A DNA stretch of 13,753 nucleotides from a virus (Duplodnaviria; Heunggongvirae; Uroviricota; Caudoviricetes), in the IMG/VR virus record IMGVR_UViG_3300029181_000068, positions 1-13,753 of that record; one strand, 5' to 3'. The notes under the pieces were generated by a model. That model had not been told where the DNA came from and ran no database searches. It saw only the letters and a program-made list of their open reading frames with translations. Numbering within the stretch: the first letter of the stretch is position 1; each line of letters opens with the position of its first letter. Below are positions 1-13,344 of the stretch, piece by piece. The position numbers and the translations under genes are program-made.

Positions 1-1928
1 TTACTGACAATGCCGAGCTTCTCCAGCAACCAGGAAACGCCGGATTTCAGGGAGTCCAGCGGATGCATGACCATATTCAGCCCTTCCGCCAGTGCCTCCC
101 CGAATCGCCGCCCCATTGCCGCTGCGCTCTGCAGTTCGGCAGAGGTCGACTTAACGGGCGTCAGCAGATCAGTAAACCAGCCCCACAGCGCCTGCACTTT
201 GTCGCCAATCCACTGGAACACGGGCTTAAGCGGTTCGAACGCTGCACTGATGGGACCTGCCGCCGCTTTGAATCCTTCCACCACGCCACCGAGAAATGCG
301 GTGATGGGTTGCCAGTATTTCCAGACAACCAGCGCCACGCCCGCCAGAGCAGTAACCACAAGACCTATCGGACTGAGCAGAGCACCTAACAGACCAGATA
401 TGGCATACAGGGCAACGCGCAGCATCGCCAGTGGACCAGATGCCAGTACTCGCAGCACCGTGCCTGCGGCGGTCAGTCCACCGCGCAGTACCGCCAGAGG
501 ATTCATAAACATCACAGCAACAGCACGTAAACCGGATAATCCAGACCGCAAAAGTGCAACCGGCGCACCTGCTACAGTTTTCAGGACATTTCCCGTCAGT
601 GATGCCGTGCGGCGCAAAGACGACAACGGCGCAGTAAGTAAACCTGCGGCGTTGCCCGATGAAGCAAGCCCGCGTCGCAGCAGTGCCAGTGGTGCGCCAG
701 CCAGCCAGGACAACGCGCTGCTGGTTCGAGTTACTGCTGCCGTAACGGAAGATAACGTTTTGATACCCAACACAGAGAATCCCAGACGGATCACTGCCAG
801 CGGCCCCAGCACTGCAGCCAGCGCCACCGCTAAGGTGCCGAGGCCGACGGTAACCGCAGCCACAACAGCCGATGCTTTCATCAGTGTGCCTGTCAGTTCC
901 GGGTTAGCTTCCACCCAGCGACGCAACGCCCCCGTGACGCTTTTCACCGTGTACAGAATATCCATCAGCGGCTGGCGCAGCGTTTCGCCCAGGCTGCTGA
1001 AGGTGTTCTGCGCTCCGGTTTTGACCAGCAACCACTGCGCAGAAAGTGAATCCTTGTTAATGTCGGATTCTTTCTGCATGGAGCCAAGCGCATCATTGCC
1101 CGCTGTCAGTTTTAACTGACGCTGCAGTTCTGGCAGGTTGTTTGCCAGTTTCGCCGCGTCATCGCCAAACTCTTTACCAAACAACATAGTCATGGCAGAC
1201 AGGCGCTTGTCCTGCGGCAGCGCGTTTACCTTCTCCAGCACGCGCTGGATGGTTCCCATCGCATCCTTCGTCATCTGCTTTTCAATCACTTCAGGATTGA
1301 GTTTCAGCAGATTCATCCCTTCAAAGAAACTCTTGCTTTGCATGGTGGCAATGGACAATTCACGCACCATCGCGTTTGCTGCACTGGCTGCAACCTCTGG
1401 CGCAGCGCCCAGTGTCAGGAAGGTGGAACCCAGCGCCGCCGCTTTACGATAATCCAGACGGTCAGCCACACCGCCCAGACGTTGCATCACATCAATGATG
1501 TCTGCCCCTTTCGACATGGCGTTATCATCCAGATAGTTCAGCGCATCACCGAGCTGTTCAATATTGCGGGTGGGGATTTTGTAGAGCTGGGCGATTTTCC
1601 CCAGACTTTCTGACAGTTCATCCGCTGGCAGCTCAAAGGCTGTTGCCGCCTTTGCTGCCGTACTGGCGAAGGCCAGCAGGTCACGTTTCTGATCTTCCCA
1701 GCTGTCGTCAGGGTTTGCGACGTTCATGCGCGCACCACCTTCAACCAGTGCAGCGAAGTCCACCGCACCGTTTTCCATCGGCAACTGTTCGCTGGCAGCC
1801 TTGATGGCATCCTGCATTTCATAAAAACGTGCAGTGCGGTTGCCATTATCGTCACGCAGACCATTGACCTGCTTTGCCACACCTTTCATGGCATCTTCCA
1901 TGCTGGTATAGCTTTTTACTGCCGCCAT
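1..1928 (-). CDS. Phage tail tape measure protein-like (P2 gpT-type), partial: 3' end lies beyond the window start; 5' region probably missing and fused to truncated gene I
   Basis: Minus-strand frame is open from the stop at 2058-2060 down to position 3 and continues off the window, so it is absent from the ORF track. Hand-translated at both ends: ATG at 1928-1926 gives MAAVKSYTSMEDAMKGVAKQVNG; the left edge reads ...AAMGRRFGEALAEGLNMVMHPLDSLKSGVSWLLEKLGIVS. A quicker, unverified read of the middle suggests an Ala/Gly/Leu-rich product with long hydrophobic stretches, as in tape measure proteins. The + strand ORF 10..1119 is its Ser/Thr/Pro/Arg-rich antisense shadow. Family assignment is from memory, not a search. 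Confidence 0.55.
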   Translation of the reverse strand, partial: MAAVKSYTSMEDAMKGVAKQVNGLRDDNGNRTARFYEMQDAIKAASEQLPMENGAVDFAALVEGGARMNVANPDDSWEDQKRDLLAFASTAAKAATAFELPADELSESLGKIAQLYKIPTRNIEQLGDALNYLDDNAMSKGADIIDVMQRLGGVADRLDYRKAAALGSTFLTLGAAPEVAASAANAMVRELSIATMQSKSFFEGMNLLKLNPEVIEKQMTKDAMGTIQRVLEKVNALPQDKRLSAMTMLFGKEFGDDAAKLANNLPELQRQLKLTAGNDALGSMQKESDINKDSLSAQWLLVKTGAQNTFSSLGETLRQPLMDILYTVKSVTGALRRWVEANPELTGTLMKASAVVAAVTVGLGTLAVALAAVLGPLAVIRLGFSVLGIKTLSSVTAAVTRTSSALSWLAGAPLALLRRGLASSGNAAGLLTAPLSSLRRTASLTGNVLKTVAGAPVALLRSGLSGLRAVAVMFMNPLAVLRGGLTAAGTVLRVLASGPLAMLRVALYAISGLLGALLSPIGLVVTALAGVALVVWKYWQPITAFLGGVVEGFKAAAGPISAAFEPLKPVFQWIGDKVQALWGWFTDLLTPVKSTSAELQSAAAMGRRFGEALAEGLNMVMHPLDSLKSGVSWLLEKLGIVS

Positions 1929-2356
1929 CACTGGCGCACCCATTGCCAGCCCTGCAGCCGTGGTGGTGGCTCCGGCACCTGCAATACGATCACGCACCTC
2001 CAGCGAACGGGCATATCCAGGCGAAACGTGCCCGGTGTTTCTCCGGTCTGCCACCACTCAATAATGCGGATCAGGAATCCGAACGGCTCCACCACCCGCC
2101 GCACGGCACTGGTGGTCCCTTTATGCTGATGAATATAAAAAGCATCCTTCACCACCTGGCGCTTGACGCTTTCTGTCCAGCCCTCGTCCCAGCGATCCAC
2201 AGAGAACGCCCAGGCGAGATAAGGCAGGAAACTGACCGGACAGGTTGCCGGATTCCACAAATCACGAAGCGGCACCTGCAGATCAGAAATCCCGCTGCAG
2301 GTTTGCGCCAGTCGGCGCTCCAGTGGTGTTGAACCCGGTGGCAGCAGACTATTCAT
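1928..2356 (-). CDS. I: Phage tail protein I (P2 gpI-like), apparently C-terminally truncated or frame-disrupted after about residue 114
   Basis: ORF of 142 aa. N-terminal ~114 aa (MNSLLPPGSTPLERRLAQ...LWNPATCP...LAWAFSVDRWDE...GTFRLD) resembles P2 gpI as I recall it (~176 aa). The last 28 aa (MPVRWRCVIVLQVPEPPPRLQGWQWVRQ) are Trp/Pro/Arg-rich and look like out-of-frame translation. Stop TGA at 1928-1930 overlaps the ATG at 1928-1926 of the downstream tape-measure frame. Confidence 0.75.
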   Translation of the reverse strand: MNSLLPPGSTPLERRLAQTCSGISDLQVPLRDLWNPATCPVSFLPYLAWAFSVDRWDEGWTESVKRQVVKDAFYIHQHKGTTSAVRRVVEPFGFLIRIIEWWQTGETPGTFRLDMPVRWRCVIVLQVPEPPPRLQGWQWVRQ

Positions 2357-2945
2357 CCGTTCCTCCGTTGGTTACGCTCCACTGCGTACATGATGCCGCC
2401 TGTGTTTTGTTCAGGACCACATCCGCCAGAGGAGAAGCCAGCTCCACACGCTGCACCCCCTCAACATGCAGGGCGGCAAAGATGGCGCTACGGCGAATAT
2501 CCCGACCAAGACGCGTCTGACTGGCGATGTACTTCTGCAGGCTGGCTTTTGCCGCTGCCATTACCGGCTCTGCTTCCGGTCCAGGATAGAGAAAAATGGT
2601 GGCTTCCACGCGATACGGGATGATTTCTGCGCTGCGAACCGTAAGACGGTCAGCCACCGGGCGGACGTTCTCACTGTTCAGAGCTTTTTCCACCACGTCC
2701 AGCAGGTCTTTTTCTGCAGTTCCATCGCCTTCGCGGCTAAGGACAGTCAGCACCACCTCTGCAGGTGCCGGGCTGGTTGCACTGGCATCCGCCACCCGAC
2801 CGTCGGCGCTTCGGGCATGAAATTCATAAGCTGCAGTTGGCCCCGCAACAGAAAGCCCTTCAAAGGCTGCAGGTACACGCAGGCGCAACGCTTCATCGCT
2901 TTCCATCACAGCTGCAACGGGCGGCAGCCTCCAGTACAAACTCAC
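2349..2945 (-). pseudogene. J: Baseplate assembly protein J (P2 gpJ-like), C-terminal ~2/3 only; N-terminal third missing
   Basis: 198-aa ORF whose track start is a GTG. The sequence PPVAAVMESDEALRLR...FEGLSVAG...HARSADGRVAD...RPVADR...LYPGPE...RLGRDIRRSAIFAALHVEGVQRVELASPLADVVL...TDE matches the C-terminal part of P2 gpJ (~302 aa) from memory. No native N-terminus or RBS. Overlaps the 3' end of the V fragment in another frame. Confidence 0.8.
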
Positions 2946-3357
2946 TGGTTTTCATGATGATGTTGTCAGCAGCCTCAATGACCATTGATTTGATGCCCCT
3001 GACATACCAGCGCCCGGTGGCGGGTTCGTATTCAAACCAGCCACCGTCAGGATGTTCTGTCACGCAGGCATCCGCCGACGTCGACGGTGGTGCGAACTGA
3101 TTCGAATAGACAGCGGGCAGCGCAAAGGCGGTTTCCAGATTGCCGCCCAGACTCAGCAGCACCACCTGCTCACCTTCCGATGGTCGCCACCATGTACGGG
3201 CATTCCCGGCACGCAGCGTCAGCCAGCTGATCCAGTTGGTTTCAAGCTCGCCCGTTTTCACCCGGCAAAGCCAGTTTTCCCTGTCCACTTCGGTGACTAC
3301 CCCTGTGCGGATCAGGTTGGTGATAAGGCGCATGATTTCGGTTAATTGTGCGTTCAT
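2893..3357 (-). CDS. V: Baseplate assembly/spike protein V (P2 gpV-like), N-terminal fragment ending in a premature stop
   Basis: 154-aa ORF with ATG at 3357-3355. N-terminus MNAQLTEIMRLITNLIRTGVVTEVD...RVKTG...WISWLTLRAGNARTWWRPSEGEQVVLLSLGGNLETAFALPAVYS has the gpV OB-fold pattern. Shorter than P2 gpV (~211 aa); its reading frame stops at 2893 inside the region where the J frame opens. Confidence 0.75.
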   Translation of the reverse strand: MNAQLTEIMRLITNLIRTGVVTEVDRENWLCRVKTGELETNWISWLTLRAGNARTWWRPSEGEQVVLLSLGGNLETAFALPAVYSNQFAPPSTSADACVTEHPDGGWFEYEPATGRWYVRGIKSMVIEAADNIIMKTSEFVLEAAARCSCDGKR

Positions 3358-3372
3358 AGGGAAAGGTTGCCA

Positions 3373-3930
3373 TCAGGGGAAGAAAGCCGGATTGCTTTCA
3401 CTCAGGACAGCGCCAATCGCTTTATGCAGACGCGCCCGTGACTGGTCCGGCATATCCAGACCGTCTGTCAGCTCCAGCGTCTGCAGCAACAGATCGGCAT
3501 CAAAGCCGGTGGCGGCAAGCATTGCGCTCTGCGCCGCGTCTGCCATTTCCTCTGCCAGCACGGTCTGCACATTGCGATTACCCAGCGGCATCACCCAGCC
3601 ATGACGCAGGGCGTGACGCCCGATCTCCAGCGCCCCGGCATAATCTCCGGCATCAATGCGCCACAGCATCACGTACATCAGCACGTCATCCTGTTGAGCG
3701 CCTCCGGCAGCCAGGACACCCTCCGCCCAGGCGGCGTACTTCGGCAGCAGCTCCACCTTGATTTCCGCTTTTTTGACCGTGGACTGAACGCCCTTGAGAC
3801 GGCGGCGGTCTTCCGCCAGTTGCAGCAGCATCAGGTCATAGCCCGACGCGTGGCGAACGCTGCCGCCCTCGCGGGCGGCCTGTTCAGCCTGAACGCGCAG
3901 GCGATGCTGCCGTGCGGGACTCAGGCTCAT
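3373..3930 (-). CDS. M: Terminase small (endonuclease) subunit, P2 gpM-like; possibly 3'-truncated
   Basis: 185-aa ORF, ATG at 3930-3928, 3 nt after the N stop (TAA 3936-3934). Resembles P2 gpM (QDDVLMYVMLWRIDAGDYAGALEIGRHALRHG, LELTDGLDMPDQSRARLHK). Shorter than the ~247 aa I recall for P2 gpM. Stop at 3373-3375 is only 15 bp from the V start. Confidence 0.8.
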   Translation of the reverse strand: MSLSPARQHRLRVQAEQAAREGGSVRHASGYDLMLLQLAEDRRRLKGVQSTVKKAEIKVELLPKYAAWAEGVLAAGGAQQDDVLMYVMLWRIDAGDYAGALEIGRHALRHGWVMPLGNRNVQTVLAEEMADAAQSAMLAATGFDADLLLQTLELTDGLDMPDQSRARLHKAIGAVLSESNPAFFP

Positions 3931-3933
3931 GAA

Positions 3934-4992
3934 TTACGCTCCGGTTTCTGCTGCTGCGGCGCTGAAGTCGCCAATCTGGATGTTTTCCACCAGTGCGGCG
4001 CAGCGGTAGTCCTCAACCACATAGGCTTCGTTAACGGATTCAAAGTTTTCAATCCGGTCACGTTTCGGGTTGTCGATAACTGAGCGGCGACGGGTGTCTT
4101 CCTGCCAGTAGATGGACAGGTTATCCAGACGGGTGATCAGCAGTGCATTCGGCGGGAAGAACGGCGCACGCACGGCCTGCAGGCCACCCATGCGTTTCTG
4201 ACTGATGATCATATCGGCAGCCAGTTTTTCACTGTTTTCCTGCTCTTTGTTGACCAGCGGGAAATACTTGTCAGACAGCAGTTCACGACCGCAAATCACC
4301 ACCAGATCGTCATCGTCCTGGTAGACCACATCGATAAGCTCATTGACGGCATCCATCACCACGGCGTCCAGGTTGGCATATTCGCCACCTTTCCCGACTT
4401 TCACCGCACCCGGTGTGGTTTCACCGCCCGTGGTGGTGCTGCCCATGACGTGATCCGGTGCATCTTCACGGATTTTCTGCAGCCAGCCTTTGTTCACATC
4501 CTGCAGCAGCGGGTTTTCGCTACGGTTGGAGGTTTTCGCACGCTTCACGCCGTTAAAGCCGATCATGATGCGGTCCAGAGCCTGACGTTTCACGATGGCG
4601 TCACGGATGCGCACCTGGAAATCCTGAAACTTCGCCCACAGGTCCAGCTTCGCGTAGGTCAGCACCGTGTCAAAGTTGGTCTGCTCGCATTTATATTCCA
4701 CATCGACCATCAGCGTCGGATCGACAGGTTCACGCTCTTTCGCGGTGGTGTCAGTGGTTCCGGCAATGGTGCTGCCAACTCCCAGCCCCAGCAGCTGACC
4801 GGACTGCTCAGTCACTGGCGTGACGTTAATCAGCGTCAGGAAAGCGGCGGACTGCTGGATCTGGTCTTCCAGCGTCTGCTGCACAGACGGCTCCACGGTG
4901 AACTTGCTGGACAGTTCTTCAACTGCCACACCGTTCAGACGCGCCAGCTGCTGCAGGTAAGCGTTAAAAGCAAAGCGGGTATTCTTCTTCAT
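3934..4992 (-). CDS. N: Major capsid protein, P2 gpN family
   Basis: 352-aa ORF. Near-collinear resemblance to P2 gpN as recalled (FNAYL...LNG, KFTVEPSV, IGFNGVKRA, NPLLQDVNKGWLQK, KVGKGG.YA.LDAVVMDA, DKYFPLVNKEQENSEKLAADMIISQKRMG, ENFES...YVVEDY). GGAG upstream of ATG 4992-4990. Confidence 0.95.
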   Translation of the reverse strand: MKKNTRFAFNAYLQQLARLNGVAVEELSSKFTVEPSVQQTLEDQIQQSAAFLTLINVTPVTEQSGQLLGLGVGSTIAGTTDTTAKEREPVDPTLMVDVEYKCEQTNFDTVLTYAKLDLWAKFQDFQVRIRDAIVKRQALDRIMIGFNGVKRAKTSNRSENPLLQDVNKGWLQKIREDAPDHVMGSTTTGGETTPGAVKVGKGGEYANLDAVVMDAVNELIDVVYQDDDDLVVICGRELLSDKYFPLVNKEQENSEKLAADMIISQKRMGGLQAVRAPFFPPNALLITRLDNLSIYWQEDTRRRSVIDNPKRDRIENFESVNEAYVVEDYRCAALVENIQIGDFSAAAAETGA

Positions 4993-5008
4993 CGGGTTTT
5001 GTGCTCCA

Positions 5009-5842
5009 TCAGCAATTGGTCAGAGTGTCAGCGGGGGCGTTACCGCCTGTTGCACGCTGGCGGTAGTCCTGGCGACTGTCTTCATGACTCAGCTTGTCCA
5101 CCAGTTCGTTAAAGGCGGTTTGCTGTGCCTGCAGGGCAGTCTCCAGCTCAGACAGGCGTTCTTCCTGCTCAGACAGGGATTTTTCGGTGCGTGCGCTCAG
5201 GTTCTGCTGCTCAGTGGCGACCAGCTCCACGGCCTTATGCACATCAGAGAACCGGGCGTCATCGGACTGCTCTTTTTTGGTAAACAGCGCCGTGACGCGG
5301 GCAAACAGGGACGGTTTGTCGTCCTGGATTTCTTCCAGTTCGATCACCGTTTCCTCTGCAGCGGTAAAGAGATTGGCAGGATTCTGCTTGCGGTTTGCCA
5401 GCGGGTTATGGGCTGCACTGGCGCTGAATGTCAGCATTTCCGTACCCAGACTGGCAGGGTCATCAGTGGCAGCCAGGCCGACCAGATAGGCTTTGCCCGT
5501 ATCAGCGAACTTCGGGCTGACTTCCATAGAGGTGAATAATTTCTGGCCTTTTTTCACCAGTTCCACCAGGGACTCCGTTGGCTCAACGTCGGCATACAGC
5601 GCCATCTTGCCTGCCAGCGGACCTTCCGTGATTTCTTCAGCAAACAGCGCCGTCACCTTGCCGTAGCGGTTAAAGGTGCTGTCCGGCAGATAAGACTTGA
5701 TGTGCTCAAGGTTAATCAGCGCGGTATACACCGCCGGGTTGTAGCTGGCTGCCATCTGTTCCAGCCATTCACGCTGGATTTCGCGTCCGTCGGTGGTGGC
5801 ACCTTCCACCCCGATGCGAAAACGCTTTGCTTTCACTGTCAT
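5009..5842 (-). CDS. O: Capsid scaffolding protein, P2 gpO family
   Basis: 277-aa ORF. Resembles P2 gpO (FRIGVEGATTDGREI, INLEHIKSYLPD, TSMEVSPKFADTGKAYLVGLAATDDPASLGTEML, ASDDARFSDVHKAV, C-terminal ATGG...TNC). GGAG 8 nt upstream of ATG 5842-5840. First gene of the leftward head operon. Confidence 0.95.
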   Translation of the reverse strand: MTVKAKRFRIGVEGATTDGREIQREWLEQMAASYNPAVYTALINLEHIKSYLPDSTFNRYGKVTALFAEEITEGPLAGKMALYADVEPTESLVELVKKGQKLFTSMEVSPKFADTGKAYLVGLAATDDPASLGTEMLTFSASAAHNPLANRKQNPANLFTAAEETVIELEEIQDDKPSLFARVTALFTKKEQSDDARFSDVHKAVELVATEQQNLSARTEKSLSEQEERLSELETALQAQQTAFNELVDKLSHEDSRQDYRQRATGGNAPADTLTNC

Positions 5843-5920
5843 GAGCCGTGCTCCGTTAGAAAAAACTTACTGGAGCCTTATGGTTGCGGTGATGGGGGCA
5901 GTGAAACAATGCGCGGTATT

Positions 5921-5938
5921 TGTACCGACAACCACACA
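5921..5938. promoter_or_regulatory. TGT-N12-ACA dyad (Ogr/Delta-type late activator box) in the divergent O/P late promoter region (5843-5984)
   Basis: Exact TGTaccgacaaccacACA in the 142-bp gap between divergent O (minus) and P (plus). P2-family late promoters carry TGT-N12-ACA centred near -55. The spacing fits the leftward O promoter best (dyad centre ~5929; plausible -10 CATAAG on the minus strand near 5876-5881; O ATG at 5842). Confidence 0.45.
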
Positions 5939-5984
5939 AACCGCAGGCGGGGAAAGCCTTCATTCAAGGCTGTAGGTTTGTGCC

Positions 5985-7751
5985 ATGAACACCACACTGA
6001 CACCCGCAGATCTCGATCCCCGTCGGCAGGCCATGCTGCTGTACTTTCAGGGATACCGCGTAGCCCGCATTGCTGAAATGCTGGGCGAGAAAGTTGCAAC
6101 CGTTCACAGCTGGAAAAAACGCGACAAGTGGGGTGACTATGGGCCGCTGGATCAGATGCAGCTCACCACCGCCGCACGCTACTGCCAGCTCATTATGAAG
6201 GAGCACAAAGAAGGGAAAGATTTCAAAGAGATTGACCTGCTGGCGCGCCAGTCGGAGCGCCATGCGCGGATCGGCAAGTTTAACAATGGCGGCAACGAAG
6301 CCGACTTAAACCCTAACGTCGCCAACCGCAACAAAGGCCCGCGCCGTCAGCCGGAAAAGAACGTTTTCACCGATGAACAGATTGAGAAGCTGGAAGAAAT
6401 CTTTTATTCCTCCATGTTCAACTACCAGCGCCACTGGTGGGAAGCCGGAAAAACCAACCGCATCCGCAACCTGCTGAAGTCACGCCAGATCGGCGCGACC
6501 TTTTACTTTGCCCGTGAAGCCCTGATTGACGCCCTGCTTACCGGACGTAACCAGATTTTCCTTTCTGCCAGTAAGGCACAGGCGCACGTCTTTAAGCAGT
6601 ACATCATCGACTTTGCCAAAGAAGTTGAGGTGGAGCTGAAAGGCGATCCTATGGTGCTACCTAATGGCGCAGCATTGTACTTTCTCGGCACCAACGCCCG
6701 TACGGCGCAGAGCTACCACGGCAACCTGTACCTTGATGAATATTTCTGGATACCGAAATTCCAGGAACTGCGCAAAGTTGCCTCCGGGATGGCCATTCAC
6801 AAGAAATGGCGACAAACCTACTTTTCCACGCCGTCCAGCCTGACCCACAGTGCCTATCCGTTCTGGTCCGGTGCGCTGTTTAACCGGGGCCGCGCCAAAG
6901 CGGACAAGGTGGATATTGACCTGACCCACAGCAATCTTGCGCGCGGCCTGCTCTGCCCTGACGGACAGTACCGCCAGATAGTCACTGTGGAAGATGCGGT
7001 GCGCGGCGGCTGTAACCTGTTCGACCTCGACCAGTTGCGCATGGAGTACAGCCCGGACGAATACCAGAACCTGTTGATGTGCGAGTTTGTGGACGATCTC
7101 GCGTCCGTGTTTCCGCTCAGCGAGCTGCAGGCGTGCATGGTGGACAGTTGGGAAGTCTGGACCGACTTTCATGCACTGGCCCTGCGCCCGTTTGGCTGGC
7201 GCGAAGTCTGGATCGGATACGACCCGGCGAAAGGCACGCAAAACGGCGACAGCGCCGGATGCGTGGTGGTGGCACCGCCAGCCGTGCCGGGTGGTAAGTT
7301 CCGCATTCTTGAGCGTCACCAGTGGCGCGGGATGGACTTCCGCGCCCAGGCTGACGCCATCAAAAAACTGACCGAACAGTACAACGTGACCTATATCGGT
7401 ATCGACTCAACCGGCGTTGGTCACGGGGTTTACGAGAACGTGAAAGCGTTTTTTCCTGCCGTCCGGGAGTTTGTCTACAACCCCAACGTTAAAAACGCCC
7501 TGGTACTCAAGGCCTACGACATTATTAGCCACCGCCGCCTGGAGTTTGACGCAGGGCACACCGACATAGCGCAGTCCTTTATGGCAATCCGTCGCGCCAC
7601 CACTGCCAGCGGCAACCGCCCGACCTATGAAGCCAGCCGCAGCGAAGAAGCCAGCCACGCCGATCTGGCCTGGGCAACAATGCACGCACTGTTTAATGAA
7701 CCGCTGCAGGGCGAGTCCGCCAATACCAGCAATATTGTGGAGATTTTTTGA
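5985..7751 (+). CDS. P: Terminase large (ATPase) subunit, P2 gpP family
   Basis: 588-aa ORF; P2 gpP is ~590 aa. Resembles the P2 terminase ATPase subunit (MLLYFQGYRVARIAEMLGEK, KSRQIGATFYF Walker A-like, NLYLDEYFWIP, IGYDPA...GDSAG). Stop TGA at 7749-7751 overlaps the Q ATG. Confidence 0.95.
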   Translation: MNTTLTPADLDPRRQAMLLYFQGYRVARIAEMLGEKVATVHSWKKRDKWGDYGPLDQMQLTTAARYCQLIMKEHKEGKDFKEIDLLARQSERHARIGKFNNGGNEADLNPNVANRNKGPRRQPEKNVFTDEQIEKLEEIFYSSMFNYQRHWWEAGKTNRIRNLLKSRQIGATFYFAREALIDALLTGRNQIFLSASKAQAHVFKQYIIDFAKEVEVELKGDPMVLPNGAALYFLGTNARTAQSYHGNLYLDEYFWIPKFQELRKVASGMAIHKKWRQTYFSTPSSLTHSAYPFWSGALFNRGRAKADKVDIDLTHSNLARGLLCPDGQYRQIVTVEDAVRGGCNLFDLDQLRMEYSPDEYQNLLMCEFVDDLASVFPLSELQACMVDSWEVWTDFHALALRPFGWREVWIGYDPAKGTQNGDSAGCVVVAPPAVPGGKFRILERHQWRGMDFRAQADAIKKLTEQYNVTYIGIDSTGVGHGVYENVKAFFPAVREFVYNPNVKNALVLKAYDIISHRRLEFDAGHTDIAQSFMAIRRATTASGNRPTYEASRSEEASHADLAWATMHALFNEPLQGESANTSNIVEIF

Positions 7752-8776
7752 TGGGAAAGAGTAAGAAAAACCGCGCTGCGGCGACGAATCAGCTCAAGCA
7801 TAAAAGCCAAACTTCAGCCGAAGCATTCAGCTTTGGCGATCCCGTTCCTGTTCTGGACCGCCGTGAACTGCTGGACTATGTGGAATGCGTACAGATGGAT
7901 CGCTGGTATGAGCCGCCCGTCAGCTTTGACGGACTGGCACGAACCTTCCGCGCCGCCGTGCATCACAGCTCACCAATTGCGGTGAAATGCAACATTCTGA
8001 CCAGTACCTACATCCCTCACCCGCTGCTCAGCCAGCAGGCTTTTTCACGTTTTGTGCAGGACTATCTGGTATTTGGTAACGCCTACCTGGAGAAACGCAC
8101 GAACCGCTTCGGTGAAGTTATCGCCCTTGAGCCTGCTCTGGCAAAATACACCCGACGCGGGTTAGACCTGGATACCTACTGGTTTGTGCAATACGGTATG
8201 ACAACCCAGCCGTATCAGTTCACGAAAGGCAGCATTTTTCATCTGATGGAACCTGACATCAACCAGGAGATCTACGGCCTACCAGGTTATCTTTCTGCCA
8301 TTCCGTCAGCCCTGCTCAACGAGTCCGCCACGCTGTTCCGCCGGAAGTATTACATTAACGGCAGCCATGCAGGCTTCATCATGTACATGACCGATGCCGC
8401 GCAGAACCAGGAGGATGTGAACAACCTCCGCAATGCGATGAAAAGCGCCAAAGGCCCTGGCAACTTCCGCAACCTGTTTATGTACTCGCCTAACGGCAAA
8501 AAGGACGGGCTTCAGATCATCCCGTTGTCAGAAGTCGCGGCGAAGGATGAATTTCTGAACATCAAGAACGTCAGCCGTGATGACATGATGGCGGCACACC
8601 GCGTACCGCCTCAGATGATGGGAATTTTGCCGAATAATGTTGGGGGTTTTGGTGATGTGGAGAAGGCGAGCTGCGTCTTCGTAAGAAATGAACTATTACC
8701 ACTTCAAAAAAGATTCATGGAAATAAACAGATGGCTTGGTCATGAAATTATAAATTTTGAAATATATACATTATAA
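7751..8776 (+). CDS. Q: Portal (capsid portal vertex) protein, P2 gpQ family; last ~30 codons AT-rich
   Basis: The ORF track starts at TTG 7748; the likely start is ATG 7751 (MGKSKKNR...), overlapping the P stop as TGATG. 341 aa; P2 gpQ is ~344 aa. Portal-like throughout (GNAYLEKR, YWFVQYG, GLPGYLSAIPSALLNE, YYINGSHAGFIMYMTD, MMGILPNNVGGFGDVEKA). Codon usage turns AT-rich from ~8680 (AGA, CTA, TTA, ATA codons). Confidence 0.95.
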   Translation: MGKSKKNRAAATNQLKHKSQTSAEAFSFGDPVPVLDRRELLDYVECVQMDRWYEPPVSFDGLARTFRAAVHHSSPIAVKCNILTSTYIPHPLLSQQAFSRFVQDYLVFGNAYLEKRTNRFGEVIALEPALAKYTRRGLDLDTYWFVQYGMTTQPYQFTKGSIFHLMEPDINQEIYGLPGYLSAIPSALLNESATLFRRKYYINGSHAGFIMYMTDAAQNQEDVNNLRNAMKSAKGPGNFRNLFMYSPNGKKDGLQIIPLSEVAAKDEFLNIKNVSRDDMMAAHRVPPQMMGILPNNVGGFGDVEKASCVFVRNELLPLQKRFMEINRWLGHEIINFEIYTL

Positions 8777-8813: not shown

Positions 8814-9875
8814 TTAATATTCAAAATTATTTTCTTCAATAGAGAACTCAATCCCTCGGGATAACTTATCAATATTCACATCAAATGCGATATCTGTTAA
8901 TTCACCATCCTCGATTTCATACATAACTTCAATTTCAATATCGAAACTAATCTCTTGAACTTCAGTTCGTGTGGTTGTCTCCATTGGAATCATTACTTTA
9001 TCTTCGCTATCCCAATACCCATTATTAAAGTCTGGACCAGAAACAGTAACTTCAAAATCTACAGAAACAGAGAAGGTCGCTAGACAATAATTATTGTCAA
9101 TCTTAATTATTGATGGTTCAAAGTCATCAATATTGACGACTTCAAATGAATCCAATTCAGCGTCTTCCCAAGTTGAAACGTTATATCCATCGGCATCATT
9201 GAGTTGGGCAATTACGTCCGCTCTTATGTCTTCACGTTTGCTTTCGATAAACTGCATCAATTTATTACTTAATTCGTTTGTATGCGTATTGTATTCACCT
9301 AGAAACTTATCAAGTGAATCAATTTGATGAAGATTGTTTTTACCATCACAATAATTTTTTAAGTCACTATCCTCAGAAATGATATACACATCTTCATCAT
9401 TAACAAATCGCTCTACCGCAGCTAAAGTGATTGCATCAGGAAACTCACTTTTTTTCTTATTTTGCCCAAATGGTGGTTCTTTGCCAAAGTATTTATCTAA
9501 AACCTCATTAAGATCTATCACTTCTATTGTAGCTAATTTGGCGTGACATCCTTTCAAAAAATCATCAAAAACTTTTTGTGCTGCTTCGTGAATTTCATGT
9601 TCGTTAAATTGCTGAAAAAAACCATGGAGCGGTCCATTATCAATACTATTCAAAAGCCTAGCTTTTCTTTGTACTGTGTTTATAGCCTGCAGAGCATCCT
9701 TTATTGATTCCTCTATTTTACCTTTTACTTCTCTCTCTACAACTGTAGTTGTAATTAAGACTAAATCACCTTTCGCACATAATTCATGGAAAGCTTTAAA
9801 TGCTACCCCCTCAAAATGAAGACCAGCCTTTACGTACGTTTGTGTGTCAATAAATACCTTATTTGTTTTAAGCAT
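8814..9875 (-). CDS. PIN-like nuclease-domain protein with an acidic C-terminal domain; candidate stand-alone defence or abortive-infection gene
   Basis: 353-aa ORF in AT-rich DNA. ATG 9875-9873 with AGGA 5 nt upstream. N-terminal ~170 aa carry PIN-like acidic motifs (KVFIDTQ; LVLITTTVVEREV; EFPDAITLAAVERFV; VYIISEDSDL). C-terminal ~150 aa are very Asp/Glu-rich with alternating hydrophobics (FDIEIEVMYEIEDGELTDIAFDVNID). Domain call is by motif pattern only. Confidence 0.7.
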   Translation of the reverse strand: MLKTNKVFIDTQTYVKAGLHFEGVAFKAFHELCAKGDLVLITTTVVEREVKGKIEESIKDALQAINTVQRKARLLNSIDNGPLHGFFQQFNEHEIHEAAQKVFDDFLKGCHAKLATIEVIDLNEVLDKYFGKEPPFGQNKKKSEFPDAITLAAVERFVNDEDVYIISEDSDLKNYCDGKNNLHQIDSLDKFLGEYNTHTNELSNKLMQFIESKREDIRADVIAQLNDADGYNVSTWEDAELDSFEVVNIDDFEPSIIKIDNNYCLATFSVSVDFEVTVSGPDFNNGYWDSEDKVMIPMETTTRTEVQEISFDIEIEVMYEIEDGELTDIAFDVNIDKLSRGIEFSIEENNFEY

Positions 9876-10001: not shown

Positions 10002-10020
10002 CTCGTATCCCCGCCACGCC
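10002..10020 (-). other. Candidate cos site (19-nt cohesive end, P2/186-like)
   Basis: Minus strand reads GGCGTGGCGGGGATACGAG followed by CGCGCGCTTAAGG. The P2 left end as I remember it is GGCGAGGCGGGGAAAGCAC then TGCGCGCTGACGG (about 24 of 32 matches; position 5 T as in phage 186). Orientation fits P2: cos, then Q and P transcribed toward cos. It is a GC-rich patch inside otherwise AT-rich accessory DNA. Confidence 0.5.
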
Positions 10021-10382
10021 TGCCCGCTTTATGTAGTGGTTTTCATGCACCTGCATGACATAAGCAAAAGCACGCCAGTTCTGGCTGACTTCAGCAAAAA
10101 CGATCCTCAAACGATCATGCGATCTCATGCGTCATAGTCATGCGCTGCCAAGGGAAGCGTAAATCCGTATCTGAATGACTGCTGAAAAGCGAATCATACG
10201 GGTTTACAAAGATGAAAGTTCGCTGTGAGCGAGAAGCGAACCTTGCAACTTTGTTGGCACAGTTTTAACACCAATTTTTTGAGGATAGCTAGAAAACTTG
10301 TGGCATAAAGGATCAGTTTCCCGATCGAACTTTTTATCAAGAAGGGCTCATAGCAATCGCCAGAAGAAGTGATGTTAAAGTA

Positions 10383-10411: not shown

Positions 10412-10444
10412 ACAGACTAATCCAATGTTTTGTGGAAGGATAAG

Positions 10445-11488
10445 ATGGCAGTCAAGCGCGCATACTACGGTAACGATAGTGACCGAGACTACTTAGAGCG
10501 GATATTTCAGTCAGCTAACATTAACTTTCTCATCGGATCAGGTGCATCCCTCCCAGCGATTAAAGTACTGGGGACAATCGAAACGGATCTTCAGCAGCTT
10601 ATTAATGATGAACAGGAAGATGAATACTTAAGGATGGCAGCTGACTTTTTGTCAGATGTTTGGCTACCTCATGAATGCATGTTGAAGCGCGGCTACGGCA
10701 CCCCCTTCGCACCTCAGGTGATCACCGATTTGGAATGTACCCGTGCAAATTATGATGCATTTATGTCTTCTCTGGAAAAGATACTGACCCGCCGCCGAAC
10801 TGGCCTACTTCCGAGGCGTATTAACGTTTTTACAACTAATTATGATTTATTCATCGAAGAAGCTGCCACACGTAATAACAATATTCTTTTTAATGATGGA
10901 TTCAATAGAAGAGCAAGTATTTTGGGAGATGCGGAATTTGATGCGGGTAGCTTTAATCATTCTGTAAGTGCAACCGGAAATCTGTATAATTATAAAGTTG
11001 AGCTTCCTACTGTTAACCTTATAAAACTTCATGGTTCGCTCTCTTGGCAGCATTCTAAAGGGAAAATCATTTATCGTATTGCAGATATTAAGCCGCTTGA
11101 CTTTCCCACCCTAGCCGAAATGAAAGGATGGGTACTTGCTCATGCACTTATTCTTCCACGTAAGGAGAAGTTTAAAGAGACTCTACTACAGAACGTTTAT
11201 TATGATTTACTGAGAACCTATTCCAACGAGCTTGATAAAGAAGCAACTTTACTAATTGTCTTTGGGTTCTCGTTTGCTGATGAGCACATTGAAACGATAA
11301 CTAAAAAAGCCCTGCGCAACGCCACCCTGAAGCTACTGATCTTTGCTTTCGATGAGGCCAGTGTTAACGGCTTTATGGAGAAATTTCGGGATTACTCAAA
11401 CGTAGAGATTATTTATCGGCCGGGAAGAAATGTTGATTTTCCGGTAATGAATAACATTATCACGTGCTATCTGGGAGGCTCGAGATGA
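10445..11488 (+). CDS. SIR2-like (sirtuin-fold) NAD-binding protein, defence-associated type
   Basis: ORF track starts at TTG 10430; the likely start is ATG 10445 (MAVKRAYYG...), 5 nt after AAGGA. 347 aa. Sirtuin-like motifs: Gly-rich loop FLIGSGAS (10532-10549), VFTTNYDLFIEEA (TQN-like) and IKLHGSLSW (catalytic His region). AT-rich codon usage. Stop TGA at 11486-11488 overlaps the HerA ATG. Confidence 0.9.
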   Translation: MAVKRAYYGNDSDRDYLERIFQSANINFLIGSGASLPAIKVLGTIETDLQQLINDEQEDEYLRMAADFLSDVWLPHECMLKRGYGTPFAPQVITDLECTRANYDAFMSSLEKILTRRRTGLLPRRINVFTTNYDLFIEEAATRNNNILFNDGFNRRASILGDAEFDAGSFNHSVSATGNLYNYKVELPTVNLIKLHGSLSWQHSKGKIIYRIADIKPLDFPTLAEMKGWVLAHALILPRKEKFKETLLQNVYYDLLRTYSNELDKEATLLIVFGFSFADEHIETITKKALRNATLKLLIFAFDEASVNGFMEKFRDYSNVEIIYRPGRNVDFPVMNNIITCYLGGSR

Positions 11489-13344
11489 GCAGGCATTTTA
11501 CTGAAGAGGAAGCGGTGCTCCGTATAGGCGAAGTCTGTGAGGTTTCTGGACGCGCTGTGACAATTTTGGTCGATAAAAACAAAAATCTCAGTGACTTGTT
11601 TTATCAGGGAAAAGTTCTAAGAAATGTATCAGTGGGTAGCTTCATTGAGATCAAAAAAGGTTTCATGAGCCTGATCGGCAAGGTTGAAGCGGAACGAATC
11701 ATTGAGGAAAAACATCTCGCTGGGAGCGGCAGTGATGCCTGGCGATATCGGCGATACCTGACCTCTACTCTTACGGGTTACATTGATCGTACTGGTTGCT
11801 TCATTGGTGGTTCGCGTGAACTACCTCTCATCGGCAATGAAGTCTTCGTGGTAACTGAAGAGATGATACAGACGGTTCATCAGATAGCTGATGCAGACGA
11901 AACTGTAATGAGGTTTACTCGTACAGATCTTGAAGATATTGAAATTGCACTACCAATCAATGGTCTTATTAATTCCCACATTGCCATTTTCGGTAATACA
12001 GGCAGCGGAAAGTCAAATACCCTAGCCGCGCTATACAAAGCAGGTATTGCCCAAGTTAAACATATTCTCGGCAACCACTTTAGTGAAAGATGCAAATTTA
12101 TTCTATTCGACTTTAATGGAGAATATACTGCCCCACGCTGTATTACTGACGAGAAGACGGTTTATAATCTCAACACGCACCATGCAAATGGTGACAAACT
12201 TCCTCTACCCAGAGAGGTTCTACTTGAGCATGATATGCTCTCAGTTCTAACCGATGCAACAGACAAAACACAGAAACCTTTCCTGAAGAGAGTTCTTGAG
12301 TTTCGCAAGAAAGTGATGACTGCTGATAATCCTCTTGAGTTTATGCGCAATATCCTGAAGAAAAAAGTCAGACAAAATCTCTTTAGTAGCGACAAACCCA
12401 AATGCGATACTATAAATCAGTTTCTTAGCCCAATTTTCAAAGATGACCCAGAACTTATATCTGATCTTGAGTATCATTCAACTGCATATAAATGGAAATT
12501 GAGGGGTGGTAGTATTTTCAATACAGAAGCTGATACTGAGCGCTCCTATCTATTCAGTCTTGCAAGCAATTTTTCATTTAAAACTGATATGATTGAAGAA
12601 CTGTTGGACTTTATGTACTTACAGTTAATACAGGAATATTTATCTAACAAGTCTAACCCTGAACATATTTCACCAGTTATAAATAGAATGAGTGCTAACC
12701 GTAAAGATATAGCCAAAATATTTGATACTTCCGGACAGTCTGACTTTTGGGGTGAACATAATTTCACGGTTGTGAATCTAAATATGGTTAATATAACCAT
12801 GAAAAAAACGCTTCCTCTTTTGATAGCCAAGTGGGCTTACAATATGAAGAAAATGTCTACAGAGAAATCTACACTGCACATCATTATAGATGAAGCCCAC
12901 AATATTTTGTCTAATACTTCTTTTCGGGAAACGGAAAGTTGGAGAGATTATCGTCTGGAAACTTTTGAGGAAATCATAAAGGAGGGGAGAAAATTTGGAG
13001 TTTTTATCACAATTTCCAGTCAACGCCCTAATGATATATCGTCGACAATCATATCCCAAGCACACAATTATTTTATTCATCGCCTTATTAATCAGAATGA
13101 TCTGTACGCAATTGAAAAATCAGTATCATATATAGATCGACTGACTGAAGAGTCGATTCCAACGCTATCTACAGGAACCTGTATTTTTAGTGGTATCGTC
13201 TGCCCCATGCCGCTCAAATTAAGGGTAGCTGAACTTCCAATTGAAGAAAAACCTAAGAGTAATACTATTTCCTTCAACGATTTAATACCTGAGAGGCTGG
13301 GAGAGGATGACCAGAGCGACTACGTAATAACCAGCCCTCACTAA
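11485..13344 (+). CDS. HerA-like (FtsK/HerA superfamily) ATPase, partner of the SIR2-like protein
   Basis: ORF track starts at GTG 11464 inside the SIR2 gene; the likely start is ATG 11485 (MSRHFTEEE...), with GGGAGG 6 nt upstream and an ATGA overlap with the SIR2 stop. 619 aa. Walker A FGNTGSGKSNT (11992-12015), Walker B LHIIIDEAH (12880-12900), and a downstream FITISSQRPNDIS motif. AT-rich. Confidence 0.9.
   Translation: MSRHFTEEEAVLRIGEVCEVSGRAVTILVDKNKNLSDLFYQGKVLRNVSVGSFIEIKKGFMSLIGKVEAERIIEEKHLAGSGSDAWRYRRYLTSTLTGYIDRTGCFIGGSRELPLIGNEVFVVTEEMIQTVHQIADADETVMRFTRTDLEDIEIALPINGLINSHIAIFGNTGSGKSNTLAALYKAGIAQVKHILGNHFSERCKFILFDFNGEYTAPRCITDEKTVYNLNTHHANGDKLPLPREVLLEHDMLSVLTDATDKTQKPFLKRVLEFRKKVMTADNPLEFMRNILKKKVRQNLFSSDKPKCDTINQFLSPIFKDDPELISDLEYHSTAYKWKLRGGSIFNTEADTERSYLFSLASNFSFKTDMIEELLDFMYLQLIQEYLSNKSNPEHISPVINRMSANRKDIAKIFDTSGQSDFWGEHNFTVVNLNMVNITMKKTLPLLIAKWAYNMKKMSTEKSTLHIIIDEAHNILSNTSFRETESWRDYRLETFEEIIKEGRKFGVFITISSQRPNDISSTIISQAHNYFIHRLINQNDLYAIEKSVSYIDRLTEESIPTLSTGTCIFSGIVCPMPLKLRVAELPIEEKPKSNTISFNDLIPERLGEDDQSDYVITSPH

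What the first reader, a model, noticed from the sequence alone, without database searches (positions are those of the whole stretch)
1928..2060. I'-'T fusion junction: tail fibre, sheath and tube genes missing
Gene I resembles gpI up to ~residue 114 (GTFRLD, ~2015) and then reads as frameshift-like sequence before its stop at 1928. A second frame is open from 2057 through to the window start and encodes a tape-measure-like protein. In P2, H, G, FI, FII and E lie between I and T. Their absence, with I feeding directly into T, indicates a third internal deletion. The TGATG stop/start overlap at 1926-1930 may be coincidental.
Basis: partly seen in the sequence, partly recalled or inferred. Interest (0 to 1): 0.45.

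Follow-up and report, generated by a model that had tools for sequence, protein, structure and literature searches.

The report
Deletion scar in decaying P2-like prophage
This is the scar of a 6.6-kb deletion in a dead P2-like prophage of E. coli; it joins half of baseplate gene I, out of frame, to a tape-measure gene that has lost its start, which is ordinary prophage decay.

Summary
The window is a P2-like (Wadgaonvirus-type) prophage, 97.6-99.9% identical to Escherichia phage 500465-1, with its late genes on the minus strand.

At window 2013-2015, gene I is joined directly to the tape-measure gene T:
- I is identical to intact gpI for residues 1-114 of 201.
- T starts at residue 178 of 1025.
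- 6630 bp are missing: the rest of I, tail fibre H, the fibre-assembly/invertase cassette, sheath FI, tube FII, E/E' and the first 177 codons of T.
- I' then reads T out of frame for 28 codons and stops at 1928.
- The T frame is open back to a TGA at 2058-2060.
- The TGATG at 1926-1930 is native T sequence, so it is a coincidence.

Two further deletions lie nearby:
- 821 bp at 2925-2926 (V'-'J, with W lost).
- 3391 bp at 3384-3386 (M' to V; L, X, the lysis cassette, R and S lost).

All three junctions carry only 2-3 nt of microhomology, which points to illegitimate recombination. The same three scars, base-identical, occur in an independent human-gut metagenome contig, so this is not an assembly artefact. 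They are absent from 5426 complete E. coli genomes.

The result is a grounded prophage that keeps its head genes and its SIR2-HerA defence cargo. Low interest.

The parts
1..2015 (-). 'T: 5'-truncated tape-measure gene, residues 178-848 of 1025. Its 3' end runs off the window start.
   Evidence: 99.85% DNA identity to T of phage 500465-1 and of the prophage in E. coli 503440. 670/671 aa identical from residue 178. Pfam PF10145, E 1e-18.
2013..2015 (.). Deletion junction D1 (I codon 114 / T codon 178). 3-nt microhomology ATA. 6630 bp lost relative to the intact phage.
   Evidence: Exact extension of both flanks against L002. No repeat longer than 8 nt between the two parental breakpoint neighbourhoods.
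1928..2356 (-). I' fusion ORF, 142 aa: gpI residues 1-114, then 28 codons of T read out of frame, with the stop at 1928-1930.
   Evidence: Pfam Tail_P2_I covers profile positions 1-116 of 139 only.
2016..2060 (-). I-derived sequence that happens to be open in the T frame: 14 codons from GTG 2057, preceded by TGA 2058-2060.
1926..1930 (-). TGATG stop/start overlap. It is native T sequence and coincidental.
   Evidence: The identical 17-mer is present in intact T of L002.
2349..2926 (-). 'J: baseplate gene J lacking about the first 111 codons.
   Evidence: protein comparison. Pfam Baseplate_J profile positions 112-254 only.
2925..2926 (.). Deletion junction D2 (V / J). 2-nt overlap CA. 821 bp lost: the V 3' end, all of W and the J 5' end.
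2893..3357 (-). V' fusion ORF, 154 aa: the first ~143-144 of gpV's 192 residues, then ~10 out-of-frame residues.
3384..3386 (.). Deletion junction D3 (M / upstream of V). 3-nt overlap AAG. 3391 bp lost: the M 3' end, L, X, holin, endolysin, lysA/B/C, R and S.
3373..3930 (-). M': small terminase subunit, residues 1-181 of 216, then FFP and a stop.
3934..8776 (.). Apparently intact head module: N capsid (3934-4992 -), O scaffold (5009-5842 -), P large terminase (5985-7751 +), Q portal (7748-8776 +).
   Evidence: Full-length ORFs. Window 3384-7753 is colinear with L002 at 98.9%, and Q is about 83% identical. Sizes match the genes called in relatives.

Best explanation
The finding is a deletion scar in a defective (grounded) P2-like prophage of E. 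coli.

Shown:
- An illegitimate, microhomology-level (ATA) recombination event removed 6630 bp between codon 114 of baseplate gene I and codon 178 of tape-measure gene T.
- The lost segment held the rest of I, tail fibre H, the invertible fibre/fibre-assembly cassette with its invertase, sheath FI, tube FII, the E/E' chaperones and the first 177 codons of T.
- The join is out of frame. I' runs 28 codons into T and stops. 'T has no start codon of its own.
- Two more deletions of the same type lie nearby: 821 bp (V'-'J) and 3391 bp (M' to V, which removes head completion, tail completion and the whole lysis cassette).
- The head genes N, O, P and Q remain as full-length ORFs, a cos-like site is present, and the SIR2-HerA / PIN_12 defence cargo is intact.

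Inferred:
- The deletion also removed the V-operon terminator and the pF late promoter.
- The element can no longer build tails, complete heads or lyse the cell.
- The fusion ORFs I' and 'T have no function of their own.
- If transcribed at all, the remnants O-N-M'-V'-'J-I'-'T would be read as one unit from the O-operon late promoter.
- Loss of lysis and tail genes makes the prophage harmless to the host, while its defence cargo stays useful.
For: - Colinear blocks at 98.5-99.9% identity to intact phage 500465-1 and to the intact prophage in E. coli 503440, with three clean breaks.
- Exact junctions with 3-, 2- and 3-nt overlaps.
- Random breakpoint pairs in the reference give an overlap of 3 nt or more in 5.6% of cases and 2 nt or more in 16%. 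The joint probability for the three junctions is about 5e-4, which fits microhomology-assisted illegitimate recombination.
- Protein-level truncations of I, T, J, V and M.
- Gene order and the operon, promoter and terminator layout of P2.
- The same three scars, with zero mismatches over window 1808-7500, in an independent gut-metagenome contig from ERR589870 that carries a different hotspot cargo. D2 and D3 also occur in ERZ773111, and D3 in ERR14041721.
- Related prophages next to ybjL carry many other, different internal deletions. Decay of this prophage family is therefore common.
- No promoter-like or terminator-like site at the junction. No Rfam family in the window.
- Intact defence cargo in the known P2 gpQ-gpA hotspot (PMC9122126).
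Against: - Nothing contradicts the deletion itself.
- The functional consequences were not tested: no virions, no lysis, and read-through from the O-operon promoter pO.
- The ends of the element (the 3' end of T, U, D, ogr, int, cI, A) lie outside the window, so its overall state is not known.
- The order of the three deletions is only weakly constrained. D3 is seen in the most samples.
- Microhomologies of 2-3 nt are individually compatible with chance.
Confidence: 0.92

Rival explanations
1. Assembly artefact. I and T are joined by a collapsed or chimeric assembly, and the real genome carries an intact tail module.
For: No complete E. coli genome (0 of 5426), GTDB representative genome, JGI metagenome contig or IMG/VR contig contains the junction. 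P2-like prophages are often present in several copies per genome (median 3 places per genome), which invites assembly problems.
Against: An independently assembled contig from a different sample, with a different portal 3' end and different cargo, has the identical junction and both other scars. The parental breakpoints share only 3 nt, and no repeat longer than 8 nt lies within 100 bp, so neither a de Bruijn nor an overlap assembler has a repeat to collapse on. Three separate clean junctions in 1.4 kb are not what a repeat collapse produces.
Confidence: 0.03
2. A functional, selected tail-less element. It would be a capsid- and packaging-competent, helper-dependent mobile element, analogous to capsid-forming PICIs or P4-type satellites. 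It would keep cos, terminase, portal, scaffold and capsid, and borrow tails and lysis from a co-resident P2-like phage.
For: N, O, P and Q are full-length, and a cos-like site remains at about 10002-10029. The scarred backbone is found in at least two samples with different defence cargo, so it has persisted and recombined.
Against: The small terminase M is truncated by 35 residues, and the head-completion gene L is gone. Non-functional fragments of V, J, I and T remain at 99-100% identity to intact phage, which is what recent decay looks like and not what a streamlined satellite looks like. Relatives show many unrelated deletion patterns, including loss of head genes. No satellite hallmark gene was seen in the window.
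Confidence: 0.04
3. A site-specific deletion made by the prophage's own DNA invertase (Cin/Hin/Gin type), which lies inside the lost segment. Alternatively, an adjacent deletion mediated by an IS element.
For: The intact relatives carry an invertase and an invertible fibre cassette inside the D1 interval.
Against: The breakpoints lie inside I and T, kilobases from the fibre-cassette crossover sites. The two breakpoint neighbourhoods share no repeat, and identity in register is at the random level: 30 of 83 positions. No IS sequence or terminal repeat is left at the junction. D2 and D3 have the same kind of junction far from any invertase.
Confidence: 0.01

Closest known systems
Escherichia phage 500465-1 (NC_049342; Peduoviridae, Wadgaonvirus) and the equivalent intact prophage in E. 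coli 503440 (NZ_CP025881)
   Same: 98.5-99.9% nucleotide identity in every retained block from T to P. Same gene order and orientation.
   Different: The window lacks 6630 + 821 + 3391 bp of tail, baseplate, lysis and head-completion genes. Its portal is only about 83% identical, and the hotspot cargo differs.
Other defective P2-like prophages next to ybjL in E. coli, e.g. FDN-11 ('T fused next to L), FORC_082, GCA_027273855.1, GCA_012404565.2, GCA_016890005.1
   Same: Same phage family, with internal deletions that remove tail and/or lysis genes while keeping the prophage end (T'/U/D/ogr) and the defence hotspot.
   Different: The breakpoints differ in every case, and none shares D1, D2 or D3. 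Whether the window's element sits at ybjL is not visible in the window. This is suggested only by L006, which shares D3 and lies next to ogr-ybjL.
Grounded or domesticated defective prophages in general (e.g. PMC6379469; the O157 defective prophage pool, PMC2669165)
   Same: Loss of lysis and morphogenesis genes by deletion, retention of cargo useful to the host, and continued recombination with related phages.
   Different: Nothing distinctive. This is one more instance.
R-type tailocins and P4 / capsid-forming PICI satellites
   Same: They are also phage-derived elements with only part of a virion gene set.
   Different: Tailocins keep sheath, tube, baseplate and fibres and lose heads, which is the opposite of what is seen here. 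Satellites are streamlined and carry dedicated hijacking genes. Here pseudogene fragments remain and the small terminase is truncated.

Membership tests
P2-like phage (Peduoviridae) late-gene region | Conserved synteny Q-P / O-N-M ... V-W-J-I-H-G ... FI-FII-E-T-U-D, and sequence similarity to family members | tested here: met
   The retained blocks are colinear with phage 500465-1 at 98.5-99.9%. The order agrees with the P2 annotation. Pfam families Phage_term_smal, Phage_base_V, Baseplate_J, Tail_P2_I, PhageMin_Tail and Phage_portal all hit.
Functional (inducible, virion-forming) P2-like prophage | Complete set of essential late genes: L, X, R, S, V, W, J, I, H, G, FI, FII, E, E', T, plus the lysis genes Y and K | tested here: not met
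   L, X, Y, K, lysA/B/C, R, S, W, H, G, FI, FII and E/E' are absent. M, V, J, I and T are truncated.
gpI baseplate protein (Pfam Tail_P2_I, PF09684) | Full-length domain and C-terminal part, as in intact homologues (201 aa here) | tested here: not met
   Only residues 1-114 are gpI, and only profile positions 1-116 of 139 are matched. The last 28 residues are out-of-frame T.
Tape-measure protein gpT (PF10145) | Complete ORF with its own start, translated downstream of E/E' in the F operon | tested here: not met
   The first 177 of 1025 residues, E/E' and the whole upstream F-operon region are deleted. The PhageMin_Tail domain itself is present. The C-terminal 177 residues lie outside the window.
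R-type tailocin | Sheath, tube, baseplate and fibre genes present; head genes absent | tested here: not met
   Sheath, tube and fibre are deleted, and the head genes are retained.
Phage satellite (P4-like or capsid-forming PICI) | Streamlined element with dedicated helper-exploitation genes, functional packaging genes and no tail pseudogene debris | tested here: inconclusive
   A cos-like site and P, Q, O and N are retained. However, M is truncated, L is lost and tail-gene fragments remain. Regulatory and replication genes lie outside the window. Mobilisation cannot be tested with these tools.
P2 gpQ-gpA defence hotspot (Rousset et al. 2022, PMC9122126) | Variable anti-phage cargo between the portal gene Q/cos and the replication gene A | tested here: met
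   SIR2 (PADLOC E 6e-211) and HerA (E 6e-267) lie at 10430-13344, between Q and DinI. Relatives have other cargo in the same slot, followed by DinI and gpA. The paper places the hotspot there.

The most novel reading that the evidence does not exclude
The scarred element may be more than debris. It could be a persistent, helper-dependent capsid module: N, O, P, Q and cos are retained while the tail and lysis genes are lost. A co-resident intact P2-like phage could still package and move it, which would spread its defence cargo. The identical triple-scarred backbone carrying a swapped hotspot in a second sample would then reflect mobility rather than vertical descent plus recombination.
Probability: 0.04. 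Interest if true: 0.55.

Novelty: already known. Interest (0 to 1): 0.1.

Why it matters
It matters little on its own. The finding documents, at base resolution, how a P2-like prophage is disarmed. Three short-microhomology deletions remove the tail, lysis and head-completion genes, while the anti-phage cargo (SIR2-HerA, PIN_12) and the head genes stay intact.

For annotation, the I' (142 aa), V' (154 aa), 'J, M' (185 aa) and 'T ORFs should be labelled as pseudogene fragments. The locus should not be scored as an inducible prophage.

One minor point of wider interest: the same scarred backbone occurs with a different defence cassette in another gut sample. This illustrates that defective prophages still take part in hotspot exchange.

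Tried and rejected
- Source genome. I searched for it and for other carriers of the D1 junction with a 34-nt junction pattern in GTDB representative genomes, JGI metagenome contigs and IMG/VR. All three returned 0 hits. Megablast of a 200-bp junction probe found no spanning match in 5426 complete E. coli genomes.
- Exact-protein look-ups. The portal gave nothing. The PIN_12 protein gave many relatives, but none with these scars. The window's own genome was therefore not identified.
- P2 cos 19-mer. With up to 3 mismatches it is not found. A cos-like site was then found by local alignment to the P2 cos region.
- Promoter/terminator scan. Nothing lies at the junction, and the counts do not exceed the shuffles.
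- Rfam. No family reached its gathering score.
- Invertase-mediated or repeat-mediated deletion. Rejected, because the breakpoints share no repeats.
- Translational coupling at TGATG as a designed feature. Rejected, because the pentamer is native T sequence.
- Not run: structure prediction and the large protein homology searches. At 99.9% identity to annotated genes they were unnecessary.

Full report
**What is at the coordinates**

On the minus strand, ORF 1928-2356 encodes 142 aa. A second minus-strand frame is open from GTG 2057, immediately after TGA 2058-2060, through to the window start. Pfam assigns the first ORF to Tail_P2_I, covering residues 5-118 and profile positions 1-116 of 139. 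It assigns the second to the tape-measure family PhageMin_Tail, E 1e-18.

**Identity of the surrounding DNA**

Megablast against 5426 complete E. coli genomes shows window 1-2015 at 99.9% identity inside genes annotated as phage tail tape measure protein. From 2013 onwards the match is to 'phage tail protein I', 'baseplate assembly protein' and 'baseplate assembly protein V'.

The best phage match is Escherichia phage 500465-1 (Peduoviridae, Wadgaonvirus), at 97.6% over the parts that align. In that phage (L002), and in the equivalent intact prophage of E. coli 503440 (L001), the minus-strand order is V-W-J-I, then tail fibre and the invertible fibre-assembly cassette with its invertase, then sheath, tube, E/E', T, U, D and ogr. 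This is the P2 order: V W J I H G, then FI FII E E' T U D.

**The junctions**

blastn of the window against L002 gives four colinear blocks:

| Window | L002 | Content |
|---|---|---|
| 1-2015 | 3001-5015 | T |
| 2013-2926 | 11643-12556 | I' and 'J |
| 2918-3390 | 13368-13841 | V' |
| 3384-7753 | 17226-21595 | M', N, O, P |

Exact extension of the flanks gives three junctions:

| Junction | Window | Overlap | Lost |
|---|---|---|---|
| D1 | 2013-2015 | ATA | 6630 bp |
| D2 | 2925-2926 | CA | 821 bp |
| D3 | 3384-3386 | AAG | 3391 bp |

The two parental neighbourhoods of D1 share no repeat longer than 8 nt. In register they are 30/83 identical, which is the random level. Random breakpoint pairs in the same phage give an overlap of 3 nt or more in 5.6% of trials, and 2 nt or more in 16%. 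The three junctions together (about 5e-4) therefore show a modest excess of microhomology. This is the signature of illegitimate, RecA-independent deletion rather than site-specific or homologous recombination.

**Protein consequences**

- **I'**: gpI residues 1-114 of 201 are identical. Then come 28 residues that are T read in another frame, ending at the first stop in that frame (1928).
- **'T**: starts at residue 178 of 1025 and is 670/671 identical to the end of the window, at residue 848. The 14 codons upstream of the junction that are open in this frame are I sequence read out of frame.
- **TGATG at 1926-1930**: found unchanged in intact T. The stop/start overlap is therefore accidental.
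- **V'**: keeps the first ~143-144 of 192 residues.
- **'J**: starts at about residue 112 of 302. W is gone.
- **M'**: keeps 181 of 216 residues.
- **D3**: also removes L, X, holin, endolysin, lysA/B/C, R and S.

**Regulatory consequences (inferred)**

The P2 record annotates a terminator after G, and the pF activator site and transcription start upstream of FI. The equivalent region lies inside D1.

Only about 27 nt of native sequence remain upstream of the V start, from 3357 to 3384-3386. In P2 the pV activator site sits about 40-70 nt upstream of V, so the equivalent site is probably lost.

If the remaining fragments are transcribed at all, it would be by read-through from the O-operon promoter. 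A consensus scan shows no promoter-like or terminator-like site at the junction.

**Is it real?**

An exact look-up of the 142-aa I' fusion protein finds it on a 12-kb contig from a human-gut metagenome (ERR589870, PRJEB6997). That contig is colinear with window 1808-8758, spans all three scars, and has zero mismatches from 1808 to about 7500. It then has 95 mismatches in the end of P and in the portal, and different cargo: a GAPS4-type PDDEXK three-gene set instead of PIN_12 plus SIR2-HerA. It is therefore a different genome with the same scars.

The V' and M' fusion proteins are also found in ERZ773111. The M' fusion protein (D3) is additionally found in ERR14041721, in a still more eroded remnant next to ogr and ybjL.

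With only 3 nt shared at the breakpoints, an assembler has nothing to collapse on. None of the three scars is present in the 5426 complete E. coli genomes. D1 is absent from GTDB representatives, JGI metagenome contigs and IMG/VR. The lineage is real but rare.

**Context**

Relatives of this prophage, integrated with their ogr end next to ybjL, are frequent, and many are intact. Several are eroded in other ways:
- FDN-11 has 'T abutting L.
- FORC_082 has partial sheath and fibre genes.
- Others lose everything between P and T, or between the hotspot and ogr.

The window's element is one more such case.

Its right-hand part carries a PIN_12 protein, a SIR2-HerA defence system (PADLOC E 6e-211 and 6e-267) and DinI. 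This is the gpQ-gpA hotspot described for P2-like phages (PMC9122126). A cos-like site is also retained: 20/22 identity to the P2 cos-flanking sequence, plus two colinear blocks.

**Interpretation**

This is an ordinary grounded prophage.
- **Shown**: the deletion itself, its exact endpoints, the out-of-frame fusion, and its presence in an independent sample.
- **Inferred**: the mechanism (illegitimate recombination at microhomology), the loss of pF and pV, and the lack of function of I' and 'T.

I considered three rival readings and give them low weight, for the reasons listed under the rival explanations: an assembly artefact, a selected tail-less helper-dependent element, and an invertase- or IS-mediated deletion.

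The only corrections concern the reference used and the full list of what was lost.

**Verdict**

Confirmed, explained and unremarkable. Interest 0.1. The kind of feature is already known.

Noticed in passing
window 10430-13344 (+): An intact SIR2 (352-aa ORF) plus HerA (626-aa ORF) anti-phage system with overlapping genes. PADLOC E-values are 6e-211 and 6e-267. It sits in the P2 gpQ-gpA defence hotspot of a prophage that can no longer make virions.
   Followed up: partly
window 8814-9875 (-): A 353-aa PIN_12-domain protein (Pfam E 1.5e-25, no PADLOC hit) lies between the portal gene and the cos-like site. The exact protein is widespread (554 index blocks). In the relatives shown it keeps the same position relative to the neighbouring variable cargo, next to the portal gene where that gene survives. 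Function unknown.
   Followed up: partly
window ~10002-10150: A cos-like site. TCCCCGCCACGCCTGCCCGCTT matches the P2 cos-flanking sequence at 20/22, followed by two colinear conserved blocks. This ~150-bp segment is conserved at about 88-92% in relatives whose flanking cargo is unrelated.
   Followed up: partly
L003/L007 (ERR589870 contig k127_20018) versus window 1808-8758: Base-identical over 1808-7500, including all three deletion scars. It then has 95 mismatches from about 7500 to 8758, a 345-aa portal, and a different cargo (a GAPS4-like PDDEXK three-gene set, without PIN_12). This suggests hotspot exchange by recombination on an already defective backbone.
   Followed up: partly
L004, L005, L006, L010, L014, L016, L018 (E. 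coli chromosomes and metagenome contigs, ybjL side): The same prophage family shows at least seven other, mutually different internal deletion patterns. They usually keep the ogr-proximal end and the defence hotspot.
   Followed up: partly
window 2925-2926 and 3384-3386: The two other deletion scars, V'-'J (821 bp, W lost) and M'-V (3391 bp; L, X, lysis cassette, R and S lost), have 2-nt and 3-nt overlaps like D1. The D3 scar is seen in the most samples (four assemblies), so it may be the oldest.
   Followed up: yes
window 10-1119 (+): A 369-aa ORF antisense to the tape-measure gene. It is most likely a spurious open frame in GC-rich, alanine-rich coding sequence.
   Followed up: no
window 7748-8776 (+): The portal gene is only about 83% identical to that of phage 500465-1, although the adjacent P gene is about 99% identical. 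This marks a mosaic boundary near the P/Q junction, at about 7750-7820.
   Followed up: no
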